This document shows positions 2,065-48,654 of a stretch of DNA of 61,217 bases, in pieces; position 1 is the stretch's first letter, and each line of letters begins with the position of its first letter. The notes below the pieces were generated by a model. The model saw nothing but the letters and a program-made list of their open reading frames with translations. It was not told the origin of the DNA and ran no database searches. The stretch spans positions 1 to 61,217 of the IMG/VR virus record IMGVR_UViG_3300027741_000065. One strand, 5' to 3'. This DNA is from a virus (taxonomy: Duplodnaviria > Caudoviricetes). The position numbers and the translations under genes are program-made.

Positions 2065-2958
2065 ATGGCCGACCAACCCGCTCTCACTAATAACCTGACA
2101 ACTGGCGGAACTAACTCCCAGGGGCTCGCGTCCTGGGCTGCTCCATATGTTACAGATATGCTTGCCAAAAGTAAGGCAACTGCTGGAGAGGGCTATAAAA
2201 CATACGGAGGCCCACTAACGGCTGGGGCTTCTGATTTACAGAATAAAGTTTTTCAGGGAATTGGTTCTCTTAACTTTCCTGGAAATCTTGGAAAAAGTTT
2301 TAGTTCTTCTGGCGCATATCAGTTGCCACAAGTTGGTGCTGACGGAACTATTAGTGGAAGCTCTGGAGATCCCGGCATAGCTAGTCAATACATGAACCCG
2401 TATTTGATGTCGGTTCTAGGCCCACAGTTAGATGAACTTCGCCGCCAATCTCAAATTACACAGATGGGCAACAATGCCAAATCAACACAATTGGGTGCTT
2501 TTGGTGGAGCAAGACAAGCAATTACGGATTCCGAAACCAATCGCAACCTAATGCAAGAACAGAATAAAACTGTTGGTCAGGGCTATTCCAATGCCTTTGA
2601 TAAAGCTATGGGTCAGTTTAATACTGAGCAAAATCAAGCAAAAACCTTGGTCGACCTTATGGCTGAGCAAGGAAAAAATCAACGTACAATTGAATCGGAA
2701 GGAATTGCTGCGGATAAAACTGAGTTTGAAAAACAACGCGACTATCCCAAAGAGCAATTAAAGTTTGAAAAAGATATGTTGGCAAATTTACCAATGTCAG
2801 CAGTTACAAATACCCCGGGAGCACAAACTGATTTGGGAAATTTGCTTTCTATTCTTGGTGGCGGAATGAAATTATCGGAAGCAGGCGGATACGCCAATAT
2901 TGGAGATCTGCTCAAAGATCTTTACGGCGGCGCAAAAAACATTTTTAGCGGGCCTTAA
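2065..2958 (+). CDS. Putative DNA ejection/pilot protein
   Basis: QYMNPY..GAFGGARQ motif, Gln-rich coiled coil, AAGGA RBS. Confidence 0.6.
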   Translation: MADQPALTNNLTTGGTNSQGLASWAAPYVTDMLAKSKATAGEGYKTYGGPLTAGASDLQNKVFQGIGSLNFPGNLGKSFSSSGAYQLPQVGADGTISGSSGDPGIASQYMNPYLMSVLGPQLDELRRQSQITQMGNNAKSTQLGAFGGARQAITDSETNRNLMQEQNKTVGQGYSNAFDKAMGQFNTEQNQAKTLVDLMAEQGKNQRTIESEGIAADKTEFEKQRDYPKEQLKFEKDMLANLPMSAVTNTPGAQTDLGNLLSILGGGMKLSEAGGYANIGDLLKDLYGGAKNIFSGP

Positions 2959-2967
2959 GGAAAAAAA

Positions 2968-4506
2968 ATGAATCTTATTCAAATTCAGGAGCATCTAAAA
3001 GATCTTCCTACTCAGGCAATCATGGGATATGCCAATGGGCAAAATCCAGAGGTTCCTCCTTACATGGCGTTGAGCGAGCTAAACCGCCGCAAGTCTATGG
3101 AGCAGCGGGCCGCGCAGCAACCTACTCAGTCTGTTAAAGATAAGCTTGAATCCCAAGTAAGCCAAGCCCCTCAAGGGCCTCAAGGAATTGCTCAGCTTCC
3201 TCAAGCTATGCCGCCCCAAGGACCGGAGCAAGGTTTGCCCCAAGGTTTGCCCCAAATGCCCCAGGGTGTTCCAGGCATGGCTGATGTTGGCTTGGCTGGG
3301 CTACCGGTTTCCGATGACATGTTCAATTACGCTCCCGGTGGGATAGTTGCATTTGCCAATGAGGAAAATGATCAAGTTGTTCCCGAGGAAAATATGGATG
3401 GCGGAGGGGATAGCAATGAGGGCGAAAAAGAAGCAATGGCAGGGGTGAGGAGTATTGCAAAACCAGCGTTTCCAGTTTTAAGCATGGAGGATGCGGCTAA
3501 AGAAATTATGCGCAAACGAATTGCTGGTGAAACAGACATCCCAGAGGTTATAAGCCCAGCTGATGCAAGAGCAGCGGCTATAAAACAAAACCCCAAACTA
3601 GCACCAATCTTGAACTCCCTTCCTGGGGAGGCGATTGAGGGTCTTATCAAAAATCTTGCAACGCGGAACCAAGCCTCGCAAGATAAATTTAAAGAGAACG
3701 AAGGACGGCTGGGGCTTGCCGGCTTGTCCAATGCCTTGATTGCTGCAGGAGAAGCTACGCGAGGCCACAAAGGCTTGGCTCTTGGAGAAGCTTTGGGCGG
3801 CTTTGGTAAATCCTATGGTAGGTACACCGAAGAATCAGTCAAGCGTGATGAGGCGCAACAAGCTCTTCAGCGCCAATACGAAATTGAAACAGCCAAGCTA
3901 CAGAGCGACGTTCAAAGCTTACAGAGAGCTTACGCTAACAATGACGTTAATGCTATTGCTCAATACAGCAAAGATGTTGCAGATAGAAAAGCTAAGATTG
4001 AAGCAATTCAAGGAACTGCAGCATCTAACGGTCTTGATATTGGAATTAAAGAGCAAAATCTTGCGGCGACTATTGCGCATCAGAAAGCTCAGAACGCTAT
4101 GTCTCAAGCCCAACTTGAAGAGTCAAGGCGTCACCATAAAGGGCAAGAACAAGAATGGGCTAATGCCAAAGCTAATCGTGCAGAACAATTGCAAATTATG
4201 AAAGATAGCAGGCCCACAGCTGAAAGCAGAGAGATTGACAGAATAAATCAAACAATTGGTCAAAGAGTTAGAAGTCTAGAAGCAAGACAAAAAGACATTG
4301 AGTTTGGTAGTGATGAGTGGAATAAAATTCAGGATGTAATTGATGACACATTTGAGCAAGCTTATAGGGCTCATAAAATAGAACCGCCACCCAGAATCCC
4401 AAGGCCAAAGATTGATGAGCCAGAAAAGAAGCCTGGATTTTTTAGTGGCCTATTTGGTAGCTCCCCTGCTCCAAAAGCTGTATCATTCGACCAGCTTCCA
4501 AAATAA
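2968..4506 (+). CDS. Putative internal virion (ejection) protein, coiled-coil
   Basis: AAGGA RBS; Q/P-rich N-terminus, YAPGGIVAF motif, long helical region. Confidence 0.6.
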   Translation: MNLIQIQEHLKDLPTQAIMGYANGQNPEVPPYMALSELNRRKSMEQRAAQQPTQSVKDKLESQVSQAPQGPQGIAQLPQAMPPQGPEQGLPQGLPQMPQGVPGMADVGLAGLPVSDDMFNYAPGGIVAFANEENDQVVPEENMDGGGDSNEGEKEAMAGVRSIAKPAFPVLSMEDAAKEIMRKRIAGETDIPEVISPADARAAAIKQNPKLAPILNSLPGEAIEGLIKNLATRNQASQDKFKENEGRLGLAGLSNALIAAGEATRGHKGLALGEALGGFGKSYGRYTEESVKRDEAQQALQRQYEIETAKLQSDVQSLQRAYANNDVNAIAQYSKDVADRKAKIEAIQGTAASNGLDIGIKEQNLAATIAHQKAQNAMSQAQLEESRRHHKGQEQEWANAKANRAEQLQIMKDSRPTAESREIDRINQTIGQRVRSLEARQKDIEFGSDEWNKIQDVIDDTFEQAYRAHKIEPPPRIPRPKIDEPEKKPGFFSGLFGSSPAPKAVSFDQLPK

Positions 4507-36131: not shown

Positions 36132-36401
36132 ATGAAACATCCTAAGTTAGTACATGAAGTAAAGAACAAGAGCTACTATATGACTGAGAAGCAAAGAACT
36201 GTATTCCTTGTTATAGATGAATTCTGGAAGGAGTTTGGGTATGGTCCTTCTATAGATGACATCATGTATCAGACTGGGGATAAGGGGCGCGGGAATGTTC
36301 ATAGGATTGTTAAGAAGCTTTGTGAGCTTGGGATATGTAAGAGGATGAGCCGTAGTGCTAGGAGCGTGCGGCCAAGTTATTTGTCTATGAGGAACATATG
36401 A
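36132..36401 (+). CDS. Stand-alone LexA-type winged-HTH protein
   Basis: MTEKQ..GYGPSIDDI..NVHRIVKKLCELG..ARSV; no peptidase domain. Confidence 0.75.
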   Translation: MKHPKLVHEVKNKSYYMTEKQRTVFLVIDEFWKEFGYGPSIDDIMYQTGDKGRGNVHRIVKKLCELGICKRMSRSARSVRPSYLSMRNI

Positions 36402-36658
36402 AAACAATCATCCATGTAAATCAGCATGTTGTTAAGGCCAATAGGAAGAATGGGACTAATGATCCCGTGCTTACTGTTAAGACCTACAAGGAGAATAAGT
36501 ACGGGCATGAGGTAACCATCCACGGCGATAGTAAGGTTGTTTACTCACCTGATAAGCCTTTGTCTTGCGGGGCGCATGTTTGGATAGAGACTCAGGGCGA
36601 AGTTACAGTTGTAAATGACAATGACTACTTGTTGGCTCTTGGGCCTTGTGGAAAATGA
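36398..36658 (+). CDS. Conserved phage protein
   Basis: IHVNQH..KPLSCGAHVWIET. Confidence 0.75.
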   Translation: MKTIIHVNQHVVKANRKNGTNDPVLTVKTYKENKYGHEVTIHGDSKVVYSPDKPLSCGAHVWIETQGEVTVVNDNDYLLALGPCGK

Positions 36659-39045
36659 ACGTAGACGCGCTTAGTAAGGCTATAGCCCTTCTTCCTGTAA
36701 ACGAGCAGGAGGCGTTCTTTGATGAGCTGGATGAGTACCGGGCAAGTCTTCTTCGGGAAGAGGCTCAGGCGGACTTTCTTAAGTTTGTCCACTCTATGTG
36801 GCCTGGGTTTATAAATGGCCGCCACCATAAGGTGATGGCAAGGAAGTTTGAAGAGATAGCCTCTGGGAAAATTAAGCGCCTGATCATTAACATGCCACCC
36901 CGGCACACCAAGTCTGAGTTTGCGTCCTACCTATTGCCGGCTTGGTTCCTGGGGAAGTACCCCAACAAAAAAATCATTCAGACTTCAAACACGGCTGAAC
37001 TTGCGGTTGGCTTCGGACGTAAGGTTAGGAACTTAGTGGGGAGCGAGCAGTACTCCAAGATCTTCCCAAATGTGAATCTTCGCCAGGATAGTAAAGCGGC
37101 CGGCCGTTGGTCTACCAATAAAGACGGAGAGTACTTCGCTATCGGCGTCGGCGGAACAGTAACAGGTAAGGGTGCTGATCTACTTATTATTGACGACCCG
37201 CACTCGGAGCAGGAAGCCGCCCTAGCATCCGGAGATCCATCCGTGTTTGACAAAGTGTACGAGTGGTACACATCCGGTCCGCGTCAGCGTCTACAGCCAG
37301 GTGGATCAATAGTTGTGGTTATGTGTATGACCGGAGATACATTGGTTCTGATGGCTAATGGAGAAAGCATCCAACTAAAAAACATTCGGGCTGGGGATGT
37401 TGTTGCTACGTTTGAAAAAGGAAAACTAAGTACAAGCAGGATTAACAACTGGCGGTCAAGTGGCGTTGATTCCATATACAAGATAAAAACACAATCTGGT
37501 AAAATTCTTCGTGCAAACGAGAGGCACCCGTTTCTCGTTATGAATGATGGAGTATTGGAATGGACAAGACTGAACCAGCTACGATTGGGAGATTTACTTG
37601 TATCGTTGAAGGATGCAACAGGCCTTCAAGGGCAAAAACAAAACCTAGCAAATGCGGACCATGCCAATCCAGCGACAATTACCATCGACGAAATCCTGAA
37701 GCGCCACGCAAGCCAATTGGCAGTCACGGAAAGTGGATTGGAAAGCATTGCGAATGCGGACAACCAGTTCACTGCAAGGGATTGTGCGCGTCTTGCTATC
37801 GAAAAGGCTACACCCCACCTCCAACTACCGCCGATCAGAGAAGGGGAAGACGGATCAAGCACCGGTATGGAATTACGGCCTCAGACTATGCTCGGATGGT
37901 TGAAGAGCGCGACAACAAGTGTGATGTCTGTGGCGAACCGCCTTCTTCCAAAAACACAAGGGCGCATTGGAACGGAAAGCTTTGCATTGACCACGATCAC
38001 AACACAGGAAAAGTTAGAGGACTACTTTGCAACGACTGCAACCTTACAGTTGGCTACGGAAAAAAGCCGAGCATTCTTGAAAGAGCTGCATCTTATCTCC
38101 GACTTCACGGTTGATCCGATAGTTAGCATTACCCCAGATGGCAGAGAAGAAGTATTTGACGTTGAGGTTGATCGGACAGAAAACTTCATTGCCAACGGCG
38201 TAGTTAGCCATAACACCCGCTGGGCAAAGAGAGATTTGACCGGAAGGATCATCCAATCGTCCATAGAGAAGGATGGAAACGATGACTGGGAGGTGATCGA
38301 CTTCCCCGCCATTCTTCCTAGCGACAGACCTTTATGGCCTGAATTCTGGAAGTTGGAAGAACTGGAAGCCCTACGCTCAGAACTGCCAGTCGCAAAATGG
38401 AATGCCCAGTATCAACAAAGCCCAACATCGGAAGAGGGCGCTATTGTTAAAAGGGAGTGGTGGAAGGAATGGAAGAAGGAAGATCCGCCTAGGTGTGAGT
38501 TTGTTATACAGAGCTGGGATACCGCATTCTTAAAATCAGAGCGCGCTGACTACTCGGCTTGCACCACCTGGGGTGTTTTCTACATGAACGAAAACTCCGA
38601 GGACGCACACATTATTCTTTTGGATGCGTTTAAGAAGCGTATGGAGTTTCCAGAGCTTAAGGAAAAAGCATTCAACCACTATAAAGAATGGGAACCGGAT
38701 GCGTTTATAGTTGAGGCCAAGGCTTCTGGAGCACCTTTGATATTTGAGCTAAGAGCAATGGGCATACCTGTTCAGGAATTTACTCCAAGTAGGGGTAATG
38801 ATAAGATGGTAAGGATTAATTCTGTATCCGATCTTTTTGCCAGCGGTAAAGTTTGGGCTCCATCTACACGTTGGGCCGATGAATTGATAGAGGAGATGGC
38901 AGCATTTCCTAATTCAGACCATGACGACTTGGTTGACTCAGCTACCCAGGCACTAATCAGATTCAGAAAAGGTGGATTCATTAGGCTTCAAACAGACGAG
39001 CAGGATGAGATCCAATCATTCCGCCGCAAGACATCTTATTACTAA
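36655..39045 (+). CDS. terL: Terminase large subunit, intein-containing
   Basis: MPPRHTKS, IIDDP, VVM|TRW after splicing, SWDTA, HDDLVD. Confidence 0.95.
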   Translation: MNVDALSKAIALLPVNEQEAFFDELDEYRASLLREEAQADFLKFVHSMWPGFINGRHHKVMARKFEEIASGKIKRLIINMPPRHTKSEFASYLLPAWFLGKYPNKKIIQTSNTAELAVGFGRKVRNLVGSEQYSKIFPNVNLRQDSKAAGRWSTNKDGEYFAIGVGGTVTGKGADLLIIDDPHSEQEAALASGDPSVFDKVYEWYTSGPRQRLQPGGSIVVVMCMTGDTLVLMANGESIQLKNIRAGDVVATFEKGKLSTSRINNWRSSGVDSIYKIKTQSGKILRANERHPFLVMNDGVLEWTRLNQLRLGDLLVSLKDATGLQGQKQNLANADHANPATITIDEILKRHASQLAVTESGLESIANADNQFTARDCARLAIEKATPHLQLPPIREGEDGSSTGMELRPQTMLGWLKSATTSVMSVANRLLPKTQGRIGTESFALTTITTQEKLEDYFATTATLQLATEKSRAFLKELHLISDFTVDPIVSITPDGREEVFDVEVDRTENFIANGVVSHNTRWAKRDLTGRIIQSSIEKDGNDDWEVIDFPAILPSDRPLWPEFWKLEELEALRSELPVAKWNAQYQQSPTSEEGAIVKREWWKEWKKEDPPRCEFVIQSWDTAFLKSERADYSACTTWGVFYMNENSEDAHIILLDAFKKRMEFPELKEKAFNHYKEWEPDAFIVEAKASGAPLIFELRAMGIPVQEFTPSRGNDKMVRINSVSDLFASGKVWAPSTRWADELIEEMAAFPNSDHDDLVDSATQALIRFRKGGFIRLQTDEQDEIQSFRRKTSYY
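37324..38214 (+). mobile_element. Intein (297 aa) in TerL
   Basis: C1 (CMTGDTLV), block B NERHPF, block F/G VFDVEV..NFIANGVVSHN, +1 Thr. Confidence 0.93.
37560..38114 (+). CDS. Endonuclease VII-family nuclease overprinted inside the intein in another frame
   Basis: GGAG-7nt-ATG; RYGIT..CDVCG..IDHDHNTGKVRGLLCNDCN..G..AASYL. Confidence 0.88.
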   Translation: MDKTEPATIGRFTCIVEGCNRPSRAKTKPSKCGPCQSSDNYHRRNPEAPRKPIGSHGKWIGKHCECGQPVHCKGLCASCYRKGYTPPPTTADQRRGRRIKHRYGITASDYARMVEERDNKCDVCGEPPSSKNTRAHWNGKLCIDHDHNTGKVRGLLCNDCNLTVGYGKKPSILERAASYLRLHG

Positions 39046-47787: not shown

Positions 47788-48224
47788 GAGCTAGTCGCGG
47801 CATGGGTAATGTCAAACCTTCTAAGATGCCTGGTGCTAAGAAAAAAGCACGCCGTGACAATACTGATTTCACTCAGTATGCTGAGGGTGGATTAGCGCAA
47901 CAAGCCGCTACAGCTATTGCCATGAAGAAAGCTGGAAAGAAACCAAAGAAGATGGCTTCTGGAGGGGAATTAAAAGAGGTCCCGGGGGATAATATTGGGC
48001 TCTCAAAATTACCTACTCAAGTACGTAACAAAATGGGTTACATGAAAGATGGCGGCAAGGTTAACGCAGCCGGCAACTATACAAAACCTAGTTTACGGAA
48101 GCGTATTGTTTCTGCAGTTAAGGCTGAAGCCACGCAAGGCACTGGTGCAGGGCAATGGAGCGCGAGAAAAGCCCAGCTTGTAGCCAAGAGATATAAGGCA
48201 GCAGGGGGTTCTTACCGTGACTAA
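47784..48224 (+). CDS. Basic protein with xxGG motifs and DUF5872-like GQWSARKAQ domain
   Basis: YAEGG, MASGG, MKDGG; NYTKPSLRK..GQWSARKAQL. Confidence 0.7.
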   Translation: MRASRGMGNVKPSKMPGAKKKARRDNTDFTQYAEGGLAQQAATAIAMKKAGKKPKKMASGGELKEVPGDNIGLSKLPTQVRNKMGYMKDGGKVNAAGNYTKPSLRKRIVSAVKAEATQGTGAGQWSARKAQLVAKRYKAAGGSYRD

Positions 48225-48654
48225 GACCTGCTTGAAATGCAGCGCAGAAAAGCCGCTTGAAGACTTCTACAAGTTTTTTGACAAGTGGTCGGACAAGCAC
48301 TATCCAAGCGCACGCTGCAAGCCGTGTCATGCAGATTACAGGCGCGAAAGCCCAACTACACCACGTAACCGTAAAGCAGACAAACTTCAACTGCGCTACG
48401 GATTGACTTACGAACAGTGGGAGCAAATGCGCGAAACCGAAAGCTATGCATGTATGATTTGCGGTATAACTGAAGCAGAAATAGATAAAAAGCTTGACGT
48501 AGATCACTGCCATAACAGCGGAAAAGTTCGTGGCATTTTGTGCAACCCGTGCAACAATATGATTGGGCACGCTAAAGACAGCGTTGCAGCGCTACGAGCA
48601 GCGGCGGACTACCTCGAAGAAAACGCTGACGGTTATAAAGGTTTTCCTGTATGA
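48217..48654 (+). CDS. Free-standing endonuclease VII-family homing endonuclease
   Basis: CLKC..CKPC..RYGLT..CMICG..VDHCHNSGKVRGILCNPCN. Confidence 0.88.
   Translation: MTKTCLKCSAEKPLEDFYKFFDKWSDKHYPSARCKPCHADYRRESPTTPRNRKADKLQLRYGLTYEQWEQMRETESYACMICGITEAEIDKKLDVDHCHNSGKVRGILCNPCNNMIGHAKDSVAALRAAADYLEENADGYKGFPV

What the first reader, a model, noticed from the sequence alone, without database searches (positions are those of the whole stretch)
37324..38214. Terminase intein whose homing endonuclease is a separate gene overprinted in another frame
Seen: TerL carries a 297-aa intein (C1..HN/T) whose removal restores VVM-TRW. Its central region has no LAGLIDADG or HNH motif in the intein frame. 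A different frame (37560-38114) has its own GGAG RBS and encodes a complete EndoVII-type nuclease with Zn fingers and DHDH..CxxCN. Both frames stay open for 555 nt, and the endonuclease starts inside the Hint N-terminal region. Established: canonical inteins carry the nuclease in frame. Inference: splicing and homing are uncoupled here, so the nuclease is made independently and the intein frame acts as a tolerated linker. Standard annotation would miss this. I cannot tell how widely it has been reported.
Basis: partly seen in the sequence, partly recalled or inferred. Interest (0 to 1): 0.88.

Follow-up and report, generated by a model that had tools for sequence, protein, structure and literature searches.

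The report
Terminase intein with out-of-frame homing nuclease
A phage packaging gene carries a self-splicing intein whose homing nuclease is a separate gene nested in another reading frame; this layout is real, conserved and mobile, but was already described in 2025 for phages of actinobacteria.

Summary
TerL (36646-39045) holds a 297-aa class-1 intein (37324-38214). A 184-aa Endonuclease VII gene (37560-38114) lies inside it in the -1 frame, behind GGAG and ATG.

It is not chance. In 91 of 91 complete related inteins (87 from IMG/VR, 3 actinophages, the window) the nuclease sits at the same frame offset and both frames are open. The third frame averages 13 stops. The wobble-position signature follows the nuclease frame across the overlap and the intein frame on both sides.

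The linker read in the intein frame is conserved no better than a non-coding frame and is predicted unstructured. The nuclease frame folds with pLDDT 87.

Synonymous sites of the intein are biased so as to keep the GGAG and ATG.

The element is mobile. Inteins 99.8% identical sit in terL genes 65% identical, with sharp boundaries. Of the 80 closest terL relatives, 75 have an empty site.

The architecture was reported for actinobacteriophage TerL inteins by Gosselin et al. (bioRxiv 2025). This window is therefore a new member, in an uncultivated aquatic phage lineage, and the layout is far more widespread than that survey covered.

The parts
36646..37323 (+). TerL N-extein (ATPase part, ends ...GGSIVVVM). 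The true start codon may lie a few codons downstream of the TTG at 36646.
   Evidence: PHROG terminase large subunit 2.2e-105; empty-site relatives
37324..38214 (+). Intein, 297 aa, class-1 features: Cys1, His68 in block B, C-terminal His-Asn, Thr+1
37324..37614 (+). Hint N-terminal lobe (intein residues 1-97, pLDDT about 74-97). The wobble phase is that of the intein frame up to about residue 90.
37549..37552 (+). GGAG Shine-Dalgarno-like motif, 7 nt upstream of the nuclease ATG. It is formed by intein Gly76 (GGA) plus the first base of codon 77.
   Evidence: GGA/GGG in 81 of 85 Gly codons at this site, against 37% in the background
37560..38114 (+). Nested gene in the -1 frame: 184-aa Endonuclease VII / His-Me-finger nuclease. 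Cys-rich N-terminal modules lie in residues about 14-80 and the catalytic core in about 97-181.
37615..38103 (+). Read-through linker of the intein frame (intein residues 98-260). It is open but unconstrained in sequence and predicted unstructured.
38104..38214 (+). Hint C-terminal lobe (intein residues 261-297, blocks F and G, ...TENFIANGVVSHN)
38215..39045 (+). TerL C-extein, starting TRWAKRD and including the Terminase_6C nuclease domain

Best explanation
This is a two-gene selfish element inside terL. A mini-intein-type Hint domain is inserted at the conserved ...VVM|TRW... site of the TerL ATPase. Kelley et al. 2016 call the corresponding actinophage site the C-motif, TerL6-f. Between the two Hint lobes lies a complete EndoVII-type (beta-beta-alpha-Me) homing endonuclease gene in the -1 frame.

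Inferred mechanism:
1. Ribosomes translating terL read straight through the nuclease gene in the TerL frame.
2. This yields an unstructured linker of about 165 residues, whose only requirement is to have no stop codon.
3. The Hint domain then splices itself and the linker out, giving active TerL.
4. Other ribosomes start at an internal GGAG-N7-ATG embedded in the last strands of the Hint N-lobe and make the free 184-aa nuclease.
5. The nuclease cuts intein-less terL alleles in co-infecting phages, and repair copies the whole element in.

Shown here: the anatomy, selection per frame, conserved initiation signals, fold predictions, presence/absence polymorphism and recent horizontal transfer. 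Inferred: translation start, cleavage specificity and splicing of this copy.
For: Families and folds
- Pfam and PHROG assignments are given.
- The nuclease model has pLDDT 87.1. Its best fold matches are Hpy99I and T4 EndoVII (prob 1.0).
- A profile of the nuclease hits T4 EndoVII 1e7d at 1.4e-5.
- The intein model has pLDDT above 90 for residues 1-90 and 261-297 and about 30 for residues 98-244. It matches mini-inteins with target-normalised TM (TMt) 0.8-0.9.

Conservation of the layout
- 91 of 91 complete intein sequences have the nuclease at offset +2 with both frames open. The third frame is open in 0 of 91.
- 16 further loci in prokaryote assemblies show the same offset.

Selection by frame
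- Nucleotide diversity by codon position in the overlap, read in the nuclease frame, is .311/.247/.529.
- In the flanks, read in the intein frame, it is .265/.228/.513 and .113/.040/.554.
- The phase switches at intein residues about 91 and about 261.
- At 60-70% nucleotide identity, amino-acid identity is 63% in the nuclease frame, 37% in the intein frame and 34% in the third frame.

Independent initiation
- The start codon at +236 is ATG in 79 and GTG in 6 of 91.
- Codon 79 is GAA 56 to GAG 3, against a GAA background of 40%.
- Gly76 is GGA or GGG in 81 of 85 Gly codons, against a background of 37%.
- In 3 of 91 a stop codon directly precedes the ATG, and slippery heptamers occur in only 5 of 91 at scattered places.

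Mobility
- L026 and L028 have inteins 99.8% identical in exteins 65.3% identical. Identity falls at the intein boundaries.
- 75 of the 80 closest terL relatives are empty and 4 are occupied.

Splicing of a homologue
- The Chandler gp6 TerL6-f intein has the same layout. It spliced in a reporter assay in Kelley et al. 2016, PMC5050341 (passages read).
Against: - There is no direct evidence that the 184-aa protein is made, cuts DNA, or that this intein splices.
- Gly76 and Trp80 are conserved Hint residues, so part of the GGAG/ATG conservation is forced by the intein frame. Only the synonymous-site bias is independent of that.
- The 91 sequences are related, so the counts are not independent events.
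- Two actinophage members (Phlyer, Vincenzo) have no ATG or GTG at +236, and their first ATG lies well downstream. Their start is unresolved.
- One genome-assembly locus (L255) has only 115 open codons in the nuclease frame.
- Sharp identity boundaries could in principle come from general recombination rather than nuclease-driven homing.
- Fold matches to EndoVII have low TM scores (0.27-0.35), because only the catalytic core aligns.
Confidence: 0.85

Rival explanations
1. The nuclease is made by programmed -1 ribosomal frameshifting from the TerL frame, as a fusion of the N-extein, the Hint N-lobe and EndoVII, not from its own start.
For: The nuclease frame is the -1 frame of terL. In many copies the -1 frame is stop-free for up to 90 nt upstream of the ATG. 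Two actinophage copies lack ATG or GTG at the usual position.
Against: The window has no X_XXY_YYZ heptamer between the upstream stop and +330. Only 5 of 91 have one, each at a different place. In 36 of 91 the -1 frame opens only 12 nt before the ATG, and in 3 of 91 a stop directly precedes it. The SD and ATG are kept by synonymous-site bias.
Confidence: 0.05
2. The nested ORF is a decaying relic of a nuclease gene, kept open only because selection on terL removes some mutations. The intein is now a fixed passenger.
For: The Gosselin et al. preprint raises this possibility for such ORFs. One assembly locus (L255) has a shortened frame, and one relative (L260) is a 148-aa mini-intein without a nuclease.
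Against: Selection on terL cannot protect another frame. The nuclease frame is nevertheless open in 91 of 91, shows a third-position wobble signature, and keeps its catalytic and Zn-binding residues invariant. Near-identical inteins sit in divergent terL genes, and there are 75 empty sites among the 80 closest relatives.
Confidence: 0.03
3. The nuclease serves the phage, for example by resolving branched DNA for packaging or by helping the terminase cut, rather than homing. Its place in terL reflects co-expression.
For: From recall: T4 EndoVII is a packaging-linked resolvase, and HNH proteins assist some terminases. The gene sits in the packaging module.
Against: 75 of the 80 closest relatives lack the whole element, so it is dispensable. 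It always travels with the intein. The genome has a separate free-standing EndoVII gene at about 48184-48651.
Confidence: 0.05
4. It is an assembly or sequencing artefact: the nuclease is really in frame, and two compensating indels were introduced.
For: The window is an uncultivated metagenomic virus record.
Against: The same offset is found in 87 other distinct IMG/VR sequences, 16 prokaryote-assembly loci and four isolate phage genomes finished independently. The intein frame carries the conserved Hint blocks on both sides.
Confidence: 0.01

Closest known systems
[quoted passage not shown]
   Same: The host gene is the same, and so is the insertion site (x|C...SHN|TRW). The nuclease is in the same frame offset. 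The elements are homologous: the nuclease is 48.7% identical to the Angelicage copy and the Hint N-lobe about 55%.
   Different: The phage here is an uncultivated aquatic virus whose TerL and portal are nearest to Pelagibacter, DSL-LC04 and Planktothrix phages at 39-57%. Its exteins are only about 30% identical to the actinophage ones. The nuclease carries an extra N-terminal Cys4 module that the Phlyer and Angelicage copies lack. The preprint's text, as searched, holds no mention of metagenomes, start codons or codon-position selection. Its supplements were not seen.
TerL6-f intein of cluster B3/B4 mycobacteriophages (Kelley et al. 2016, mBio, PMC5050341)
   Same: It is the same intein family at the ATPase C-motif. 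Chandler gp6 has the EndoVII reading frame at offset +2, and its intein spliced in the MBP-intein-GFP reporter.
   Different: 'endonuclease VII' does not occur in that paper's main text, and its three mentions of HNH concern other proteins or a reference. The intein is shorter (254 aa in Phlyer) and GC-rich.
Canonical inteins with an in-frame LAGLIDADG or HNH homing endonuclease domain
   Same: A Hint splicing domain is interrupted by a homing nuclease. Distribution is sporadic, and insertion is at a conserved active-site motif.
   Different: Here the nuclease is not part of the intein polypeptide. The in-frame insert has no fold and no nuclease motif.
Other out-of-frame or nested homing nucleases: the ShiLan insertion in a phage methylase (PMC11855218, abstract read), the cyanobacterial dnaX intein (bioRxiv 10.64898/2026.09.14.751524, abstract read), and split inteins with a free-standing nuclease gene between the halves (Dassa et al. 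2009, known here only as cited in the preprint)
   Same: A homing nuclease gene is decoupled from the host reading frame, while the host frame stays open or is rescued by splicing.
   Different: ShiLan has no splicing domain. The dnaX case has a different host gene. According to the Gosselin preprint, the anti-sense case reported earlier in dnaX had a LAGLIDADG nuclease; the nuclease family of the out-of-frame dnaX nuclease was not checked here. In fractured genes the host gene is split into two ORFs; here it stays contiguous.

Membership tests
Intein (class 1, Hint/HINT fold) | N-terminal Cys/Ser nucleophile, block B His, C-terminal His-Asn, and a Cys/Ser/Thr at +1 | tested here: met
   C1, H68, H296 and N297 are invariant in 79 aligned sequences, and +1 is Thr (TRW) in all 91. 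The naming of the blocks is recalled.
Intein (class 1, Hint/HINT fold) | Hint fold | tested here: met
   Pfam Intein_splicing at 2.3e-18, above the cut-off. The AF2 lobes have pLDDT above 90. Foldseek matches Ssp/Npu DnaB mini-inteins at 3.7e-10 and 1.2e-9, with target-normalised TM (TMt) 0.79-0.88.
Intein (class 1, Hint/HINT fold) | In-frame insertion whose precise removal restores the host protein | tested here: met
   75 of the 80 closest terL relatives read ...VVM|TRW... with a gap of 0 nt. Four carry an insert of exactly 891 nt.
Intein (class 1, Hint/HINT fold) | Protein splicing activity | not testable with these tools
   Only a homologue has been tested: Chandler gp6 TerL6-f spliced in Kelley et al. 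2016.
Endonuclease VII / His-Me finger (Pfam PF02945) | Profile match above the curated threshold | tested here: met
   70.4 bits against a 23.6 cut-off. The own-genome scan gave 72.6 bits.
Endonuclease VII / His-Me finger (Pfam PF02945) | Catalytic D-H..H...N residues and the four Zn-binding Cys of the core | tested here: met
   C121, C124, D144, H145, H147, C157, C160 and N161 are invariant in 79 sequences. They align to T4 EndoVII residues 10-70. The roles of these residues are recalled, not tested.
Endonuclease VII / His-Me finger (Pfam PF02945) | beta-beta-alpha-Me fold | tested here: met
   Foldseek ranks Hpy99I 3fc3 (5.3e-4) and T4 EndoVII 1en7/1e7l (prob 1.0) on top. The TM scores are only 0.27-0.35, because only the core aligns.
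Homing endonuclease (functional class) | Sporadic presence, and horizontal transfer of the element into a fixed site | tested here: met
   99.8% identical inteins in 65% identical exteins, and 75 empty against 4 filled sites among the 80 closest relatives.
Homing endonuclease (functional class) | Site-specific cleavage of the empty allele | not testable with these tools
Non-canonical intein with out-of-frame EndoVII-like HEN (Gosselin et al. 2025) | An EndoVII-like ORF between the splicing blocks, in frame 3 relative to the intein, on the same strand, in TerL | tested here: met
   Offset +2 in the window and in Angelicage, Phlyer, Vincenzo and Chandler. Homology is shown by tblastn at 3e-36.
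Overprinted (de novo) gene | The alternative-frame gene arose de novo within an older coding frame and has no homologues outside the overlap | tested here: not met
   The nuclease has free-standing homologues: 17 in IMG/VR loci, one in this genome, and annotated endonuclease VII genes in mycobacteriophages. The secondary frame is the linker.

The most novel reading that the evidence does not exclude
The out-of-frame layout is not a rare, short-lived accident of a nuclease gene landing in an intein, as the 2025 preprint suggests. It is an old, stable and still mobile design that spans phages of several bacterial phyla.

Its translation start (GGAG-N7-ATG) is written into the synonymous sites of a conserved Hint strand. 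Its linker is selected only for the absence of stop codons. On this reading, this whole TerL C-motif intein family has for a long time propagated as 'splicing domain plus separately translated nuclease'. Physical fusion of nuclease and intein would then not be needed for long-term persistence of an intein.
Probability: 0.6. Interest if true: 0.55.

Novelty: new member of a known kind. Interest (0 to 1): 0.45.

Why it matters
Textbook inteins carry their homing nuclease as an in-frame domain. This case, with about a hundred relatives found here, shows that the two functions can be encoded as separate overlapping genes and still spread.

That bears on three points:
- how inteins acquire nucleases (the 'splicing first' model);
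- annotation, because the nested gene is not annotated as a separate CDS in any of the four GenBank/RefSeq phage records inspected;
- the tolerance of Hint domains for long unstructured inserts, which is useful for intein engineering.

The family also offers a compact, naturally separate nuclease that targets a conserved terminase motif.

Tried and rejected
Approaches that led nowhere or were weak
- Nucleotide search against cultured phages found no close relative: 22 records, none covering 80% of the query.
- The synonymous-codon permutation test was a weak null. The frame stayed open in 54.5% of trials for the window and in 0.8-71% for the 11 other sequences tested. I replaced it with re-encoding under genome codon usage and with free-standing relatives as natural controls.
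- A programmed frameshift was considered and found unsupported.
- An in-frame nuclease was looked for and not found: Pfam finds no nuclease family in the intein frame, and AF2 predicts no fold for residues 98-244.

Errors of mine
- In one search the queries 'intM' and 'intC' were translated in the wrong frame, off by one. In 'intC' was again in the wrong frame. Those columns were ignored. The per-frame comparison was redone properly.
I corrected it and sent the same report again.

Rows dropped before the count of 91
- Loci without a Hint N-lobe hit starting at residue 1, or without a nuclease hit. These are contig-end fragments such as L018, L050, L052, L056, L059, L122, L132 and L160, and the free-standing nuclease loci L057-L081.
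- Exact duplicates of an intein nucleotide sequence.
- L094, which is cut by its contig end.

Not done
- No RNA or read evidence, no complex prediction, and no large protein-database search. None of these would separate the two frames.
- The host labels of metagenome-assembled genomes are not trusted as hosts. Only the isolate assemblies (Kistimonas, Bradyrhizobium, Oribacterium, Dysosmobacter) are taken as hints.
- Supplementary tables and figures of the Gosselin preprint and of Kelley et al. were not seen. They may list more members or analyses than I credit.
Full report
**What is there.** The window is a whole uncultivated virus record of 61,217 bases, estimated 97% complete. It has 47.5% G+C. 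TerL is the 799-aa ORF at 36646-39045. PHROG calls it a terminase large subunit at 2.2e-105, and Pfam finds Terminase_6C.

Residues 227-523 (37324-38214) begin with Cys and end with His-Asn, followed by Thr-Arg-Trp. They match Pfam Intein_splicing at 2.3e-18. This is the only intein in the genome. In the intein frame Pfam finds no nuclease family.

A 184-aa ORF at 37560-38114 lies in the frame shifted by +2, that is -1. It matches Pfam Endonuclease_7 at 1.2e-19 (70.4 bits, cut-off 23.6) and PHROG endonuclease VII at 1.2e-27. GGAG lies at 37549-37552, 7 nt before its ATG.

**Is it more than chance?** I collected relatives from IMG/VR with the nuclease and with the intein as queries. I added three actinophage records whose terminase genes were the best tblastn hits of the nuclease.

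I removed fragments, free-standing nuclease genes and exact duplicates. This left 92 distinct intein-bearing sequences, one of which (L094) is cut by its contig end. In 91 of the 91 complete ones the following holds:
- the nuclease reading frame is at offset +2;
- the intein is 254-305 aa long;
- the site is x|C...HN|TRW.

Across the overlap the nuclease frame and the intein frame have no stop in 91 of 91. The third frame has 3-24 stops (mean 13.2) and is open in 0 of 91.

Natural controls point the same way. In 17 free-standing EndoVII-like ORFs from the same loci set, the frame that the intein would use has 3-15 stops and is open in 0 of 17. The window's own second EndoVII gene has 9 stops in that frame. 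Re-encoding the window's nuclease protein with the codon usage of TerL and the portal leaves the intein frame open in 1.8% of 20,000 trials. Permuting its own synonymous codons leaves it open in 54.5%. Its codon set has therefore already been purged of stop-making combinations.

**Which frame is under protein-level selection?** In a codon alignment, nucleotide diversity at codon positions 1/2/3 is as follows:
- Hint N-lobe, read in the intein frame: .265/.228/.513;
- C-lobe, read in the intein frame: .113/.040/.554;
- overlap, read in the nuclease frame: .311/.247/.529.

The most variable position in the overlap is thus the second codon position of the intein frame. A sliding window puts the switch of phase at about intein residue 91 and the switch back at about residue 261.

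For pairs with 60-70% nucleotide identity (n=2587), amino-acid identity is 63% in the nuclease frame, 37% in the intein frame and 34% in the non-coding third frame. The linker read in the intein frame is therefore constrained only to stay open.

AlphaFold2 agrees:
- The nuclease, modelled with 79 aligned sequences, has mean pLDDT 87.1.
- The intein has pLDDT above 90 for residues 1-90 and 261-297, but about 30 for residues 98-244.
- The folded part of the intein matches mini-inteins: Ssp and Npu DnaB at 3.7e-10 and 1.2e-9, target-normalised TM (TMt) 0.79-0.88.
- The nuclease model's best matches are Hpy99I and T4 endonuclease VII, although TM is only about 0.3 because just the core aligns.
- A profile of the nuclease hits T4 EndoVII at 1.4e-5.
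- The Cys, Asp, His and Asn residues of the core are invariant in 79 sequences.

**How is the nuclease made?** The codon at +236 from the intein start is ATG in 79 and GTG in 6 of 91. This ATG is built from the last base of intein codon 79 and the first two of Trp80. Codon 79 is GAA 56 times and GAG 3 times, while GAA is 40% of Glu codons in the flanking coding sequence. The GGAG is built from Gly76 plus one base. That codon is GGA or GGG in 81 of 85 Gly codons, against 37% in the background. Synonymous sites of the intein are thus biased towards keeping a ribosome-binding site and a start codon.

A conserved -1 frameshift signal is absent. Canonical slippery heptamers occur in 5 of 91 sequences, at five different places, and not in the window. 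In 3 of 91 a stop codon directly precedes the ATG. Independent internal initiation is therefore the best reading, but it is inferred.

Two actinophage copies (Phlyer, Vincenzo) lack ATG or GTG at this position, and their start is unresolved.

**Is it mobile?** Over 3160 pairs, intein and extein identities correlate (r=0.82), but there are strong outliers:
- L026/L028: intein 99.8%, exteins 65.3%;
- L015/L016: intein 99.9%, exteins 72.5%;
- L005/L006: intein 96.9%, exteins 67.6%;
- the reverse case, L020/L151: exteins 93.2%, inteins 66.2%.

Identity profiles for two of these pairs stay at 97-100% inside the intein and drop to 50-85% in the first 60-nt window on either side.

Of the 80 IMG/VR loci closest to the window's C-extein (89-96% identity), 75 have the uninterrupted ...VVM|TRW... 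site. Four carry an 891-nt intein, and one lacks the flank. This is the pattern of an actively homing element.

**Spread.** The phage's C-extein and portal are nearest to Pelagibacter phages HTVC027P/023P, phage DSL-LC04 and Planktothrix/Synechococcus phages, at 39-57% amino-acid identity. It is not an actinophage by these markers, and its host is unknown.

A scan of prokaryote assemblies returned 43 loci. In 16 of them (L244-L259) the same intein sits in terL with the nuclease at offset +2. These include isolate assemblies of Kistimonas, Bradyrhizobium, Oribacterium and Dysosmobacter. In 15 of the 16 the nuclease frame is open for 153-260 codons, and in one (L255) for only 115 codons. L260 is a 148-aa mini-intein at the same site with no nuclease. 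The remaining 26 loci showed no nuclease hit and are other or partial inteins.

**What is known.** Gosselin, Arsenault and Gogarten (bioRxiv 10.1101/2025.01.02.630785) surveyed PhagesDB. I read the abstract, passages and section 15. [quoted passage not shown] They name Angelicage, Affeca, Keitabear and Sedona, which are the best hits of my. They call these elements seemingly rare and suggest the architecture arose by invasion of an intein by a free-standing nuclease gene. A search of the main text found no mention of metagenomes, start codons or Walker motifs. The supplements were not seen.

Kelley et al. 2016 (PMC5050341; section 8 and passages read) described the TerL6-f intein at the ATPase C-motif in cluster B3/B4 phages. 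They showed that the Chandler gp6 intein splices. Chandler has the nuclease frame at offset +2.

Related out-of-frame nucleases are reported for a phage methylase insertion (PMC11855218, abstract read) and for the cyanobacterial dnaX intein (bioRxiv 10.64898/2026.09.14.751524, abstract read).

**Verdict.** Three things are added here:
- a member in an unrelated, uncultivated aquatic phage;
- evidence that the layout is common (over a hundred distinct copies) and conserved from actinophages to prophage-like loci in Proteobacteria and Bacillota assemblies;
- frame-resolved selection, conserved initiation signals and sharp transfer boundaries.

'Overprinting' should not be used for the nuclease. 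It has free-standing homologues and is the older frame, and the secondary reading is the linker.

Noticed in passing
window 48184-48651 (+), stop to stop: A second, free-standing Endonuclease VII gene (Pfam 85.5 bits; PHROG endonuclease VII 1.8e-36). It is 33.6% identical to the intein-borne one and has 9 stops in the frame the intein would use. It may be the phage's resolvase, or another homing nuclease and a possible source lineage of nested nucleases.
   Followed up: partly
L260:2501-2944 (Desulfobacteraceae MAG contig): A 148-aa mini-intein of the same family at the same TerL site (...IIN|C...SHN|TRW) with no nuclease gene. It still has an ATG at +236. It is either the ancestral state before the nuclease invaded or a deletion derivative.
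   Followed up: partly
L255 (uncultured bacterium bin contig), intein at 2501-3316: The nuclease frame is open for only 115 codons (nt 386-731 of the intein), although an ATG is present at +236. This may be a decaying copy.
   Followed up: no
L020 vs L151/L155: The terL exteins are 93% identical but carry inteins only 66% identical. This suggests independent invasions or replacement of one intein allele by another at the same site.
   Followed up: no
L252 and L253 (Oribacterium sp. and Dysosmobacter sp. isolate assemblies with similar strain labels): Both gave the same tblastn identities, the same coordinates and the same intein parameters. This points to the same prophage in two genera or to cross-contamination of the assemblies.
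   Followed up: no
nuclease residues 14-35 (window 37599-37664): An N-terminal Cys-x4-Cys...Cys-x2-Cys module is nearly invariant in the aquatic clade. It is absent from the shorter Phlyer, Angelicage and L054 nucleases. It is probably a modular DNA-binding add-on that could tune target recognition.
   Followed up: no
L003 (Mycobacterium phage Vincenzo, RefSeq NC_028934.1): The terL product note reads 'terminase large subunit/(homing endonuclease in intein)', so annotators had sensed a nuclease there. No separate CDS is annotated in any of the four phage records inspected.
   Followed up: yes
window 36646-36660: The listed TerL ORF starts at a TTG (MWKMNVD...). An ATG three codons downstream (MNVD...) may be the real start. 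The upstream ORF 36398-36658 overlaps it.
   Followed up: no
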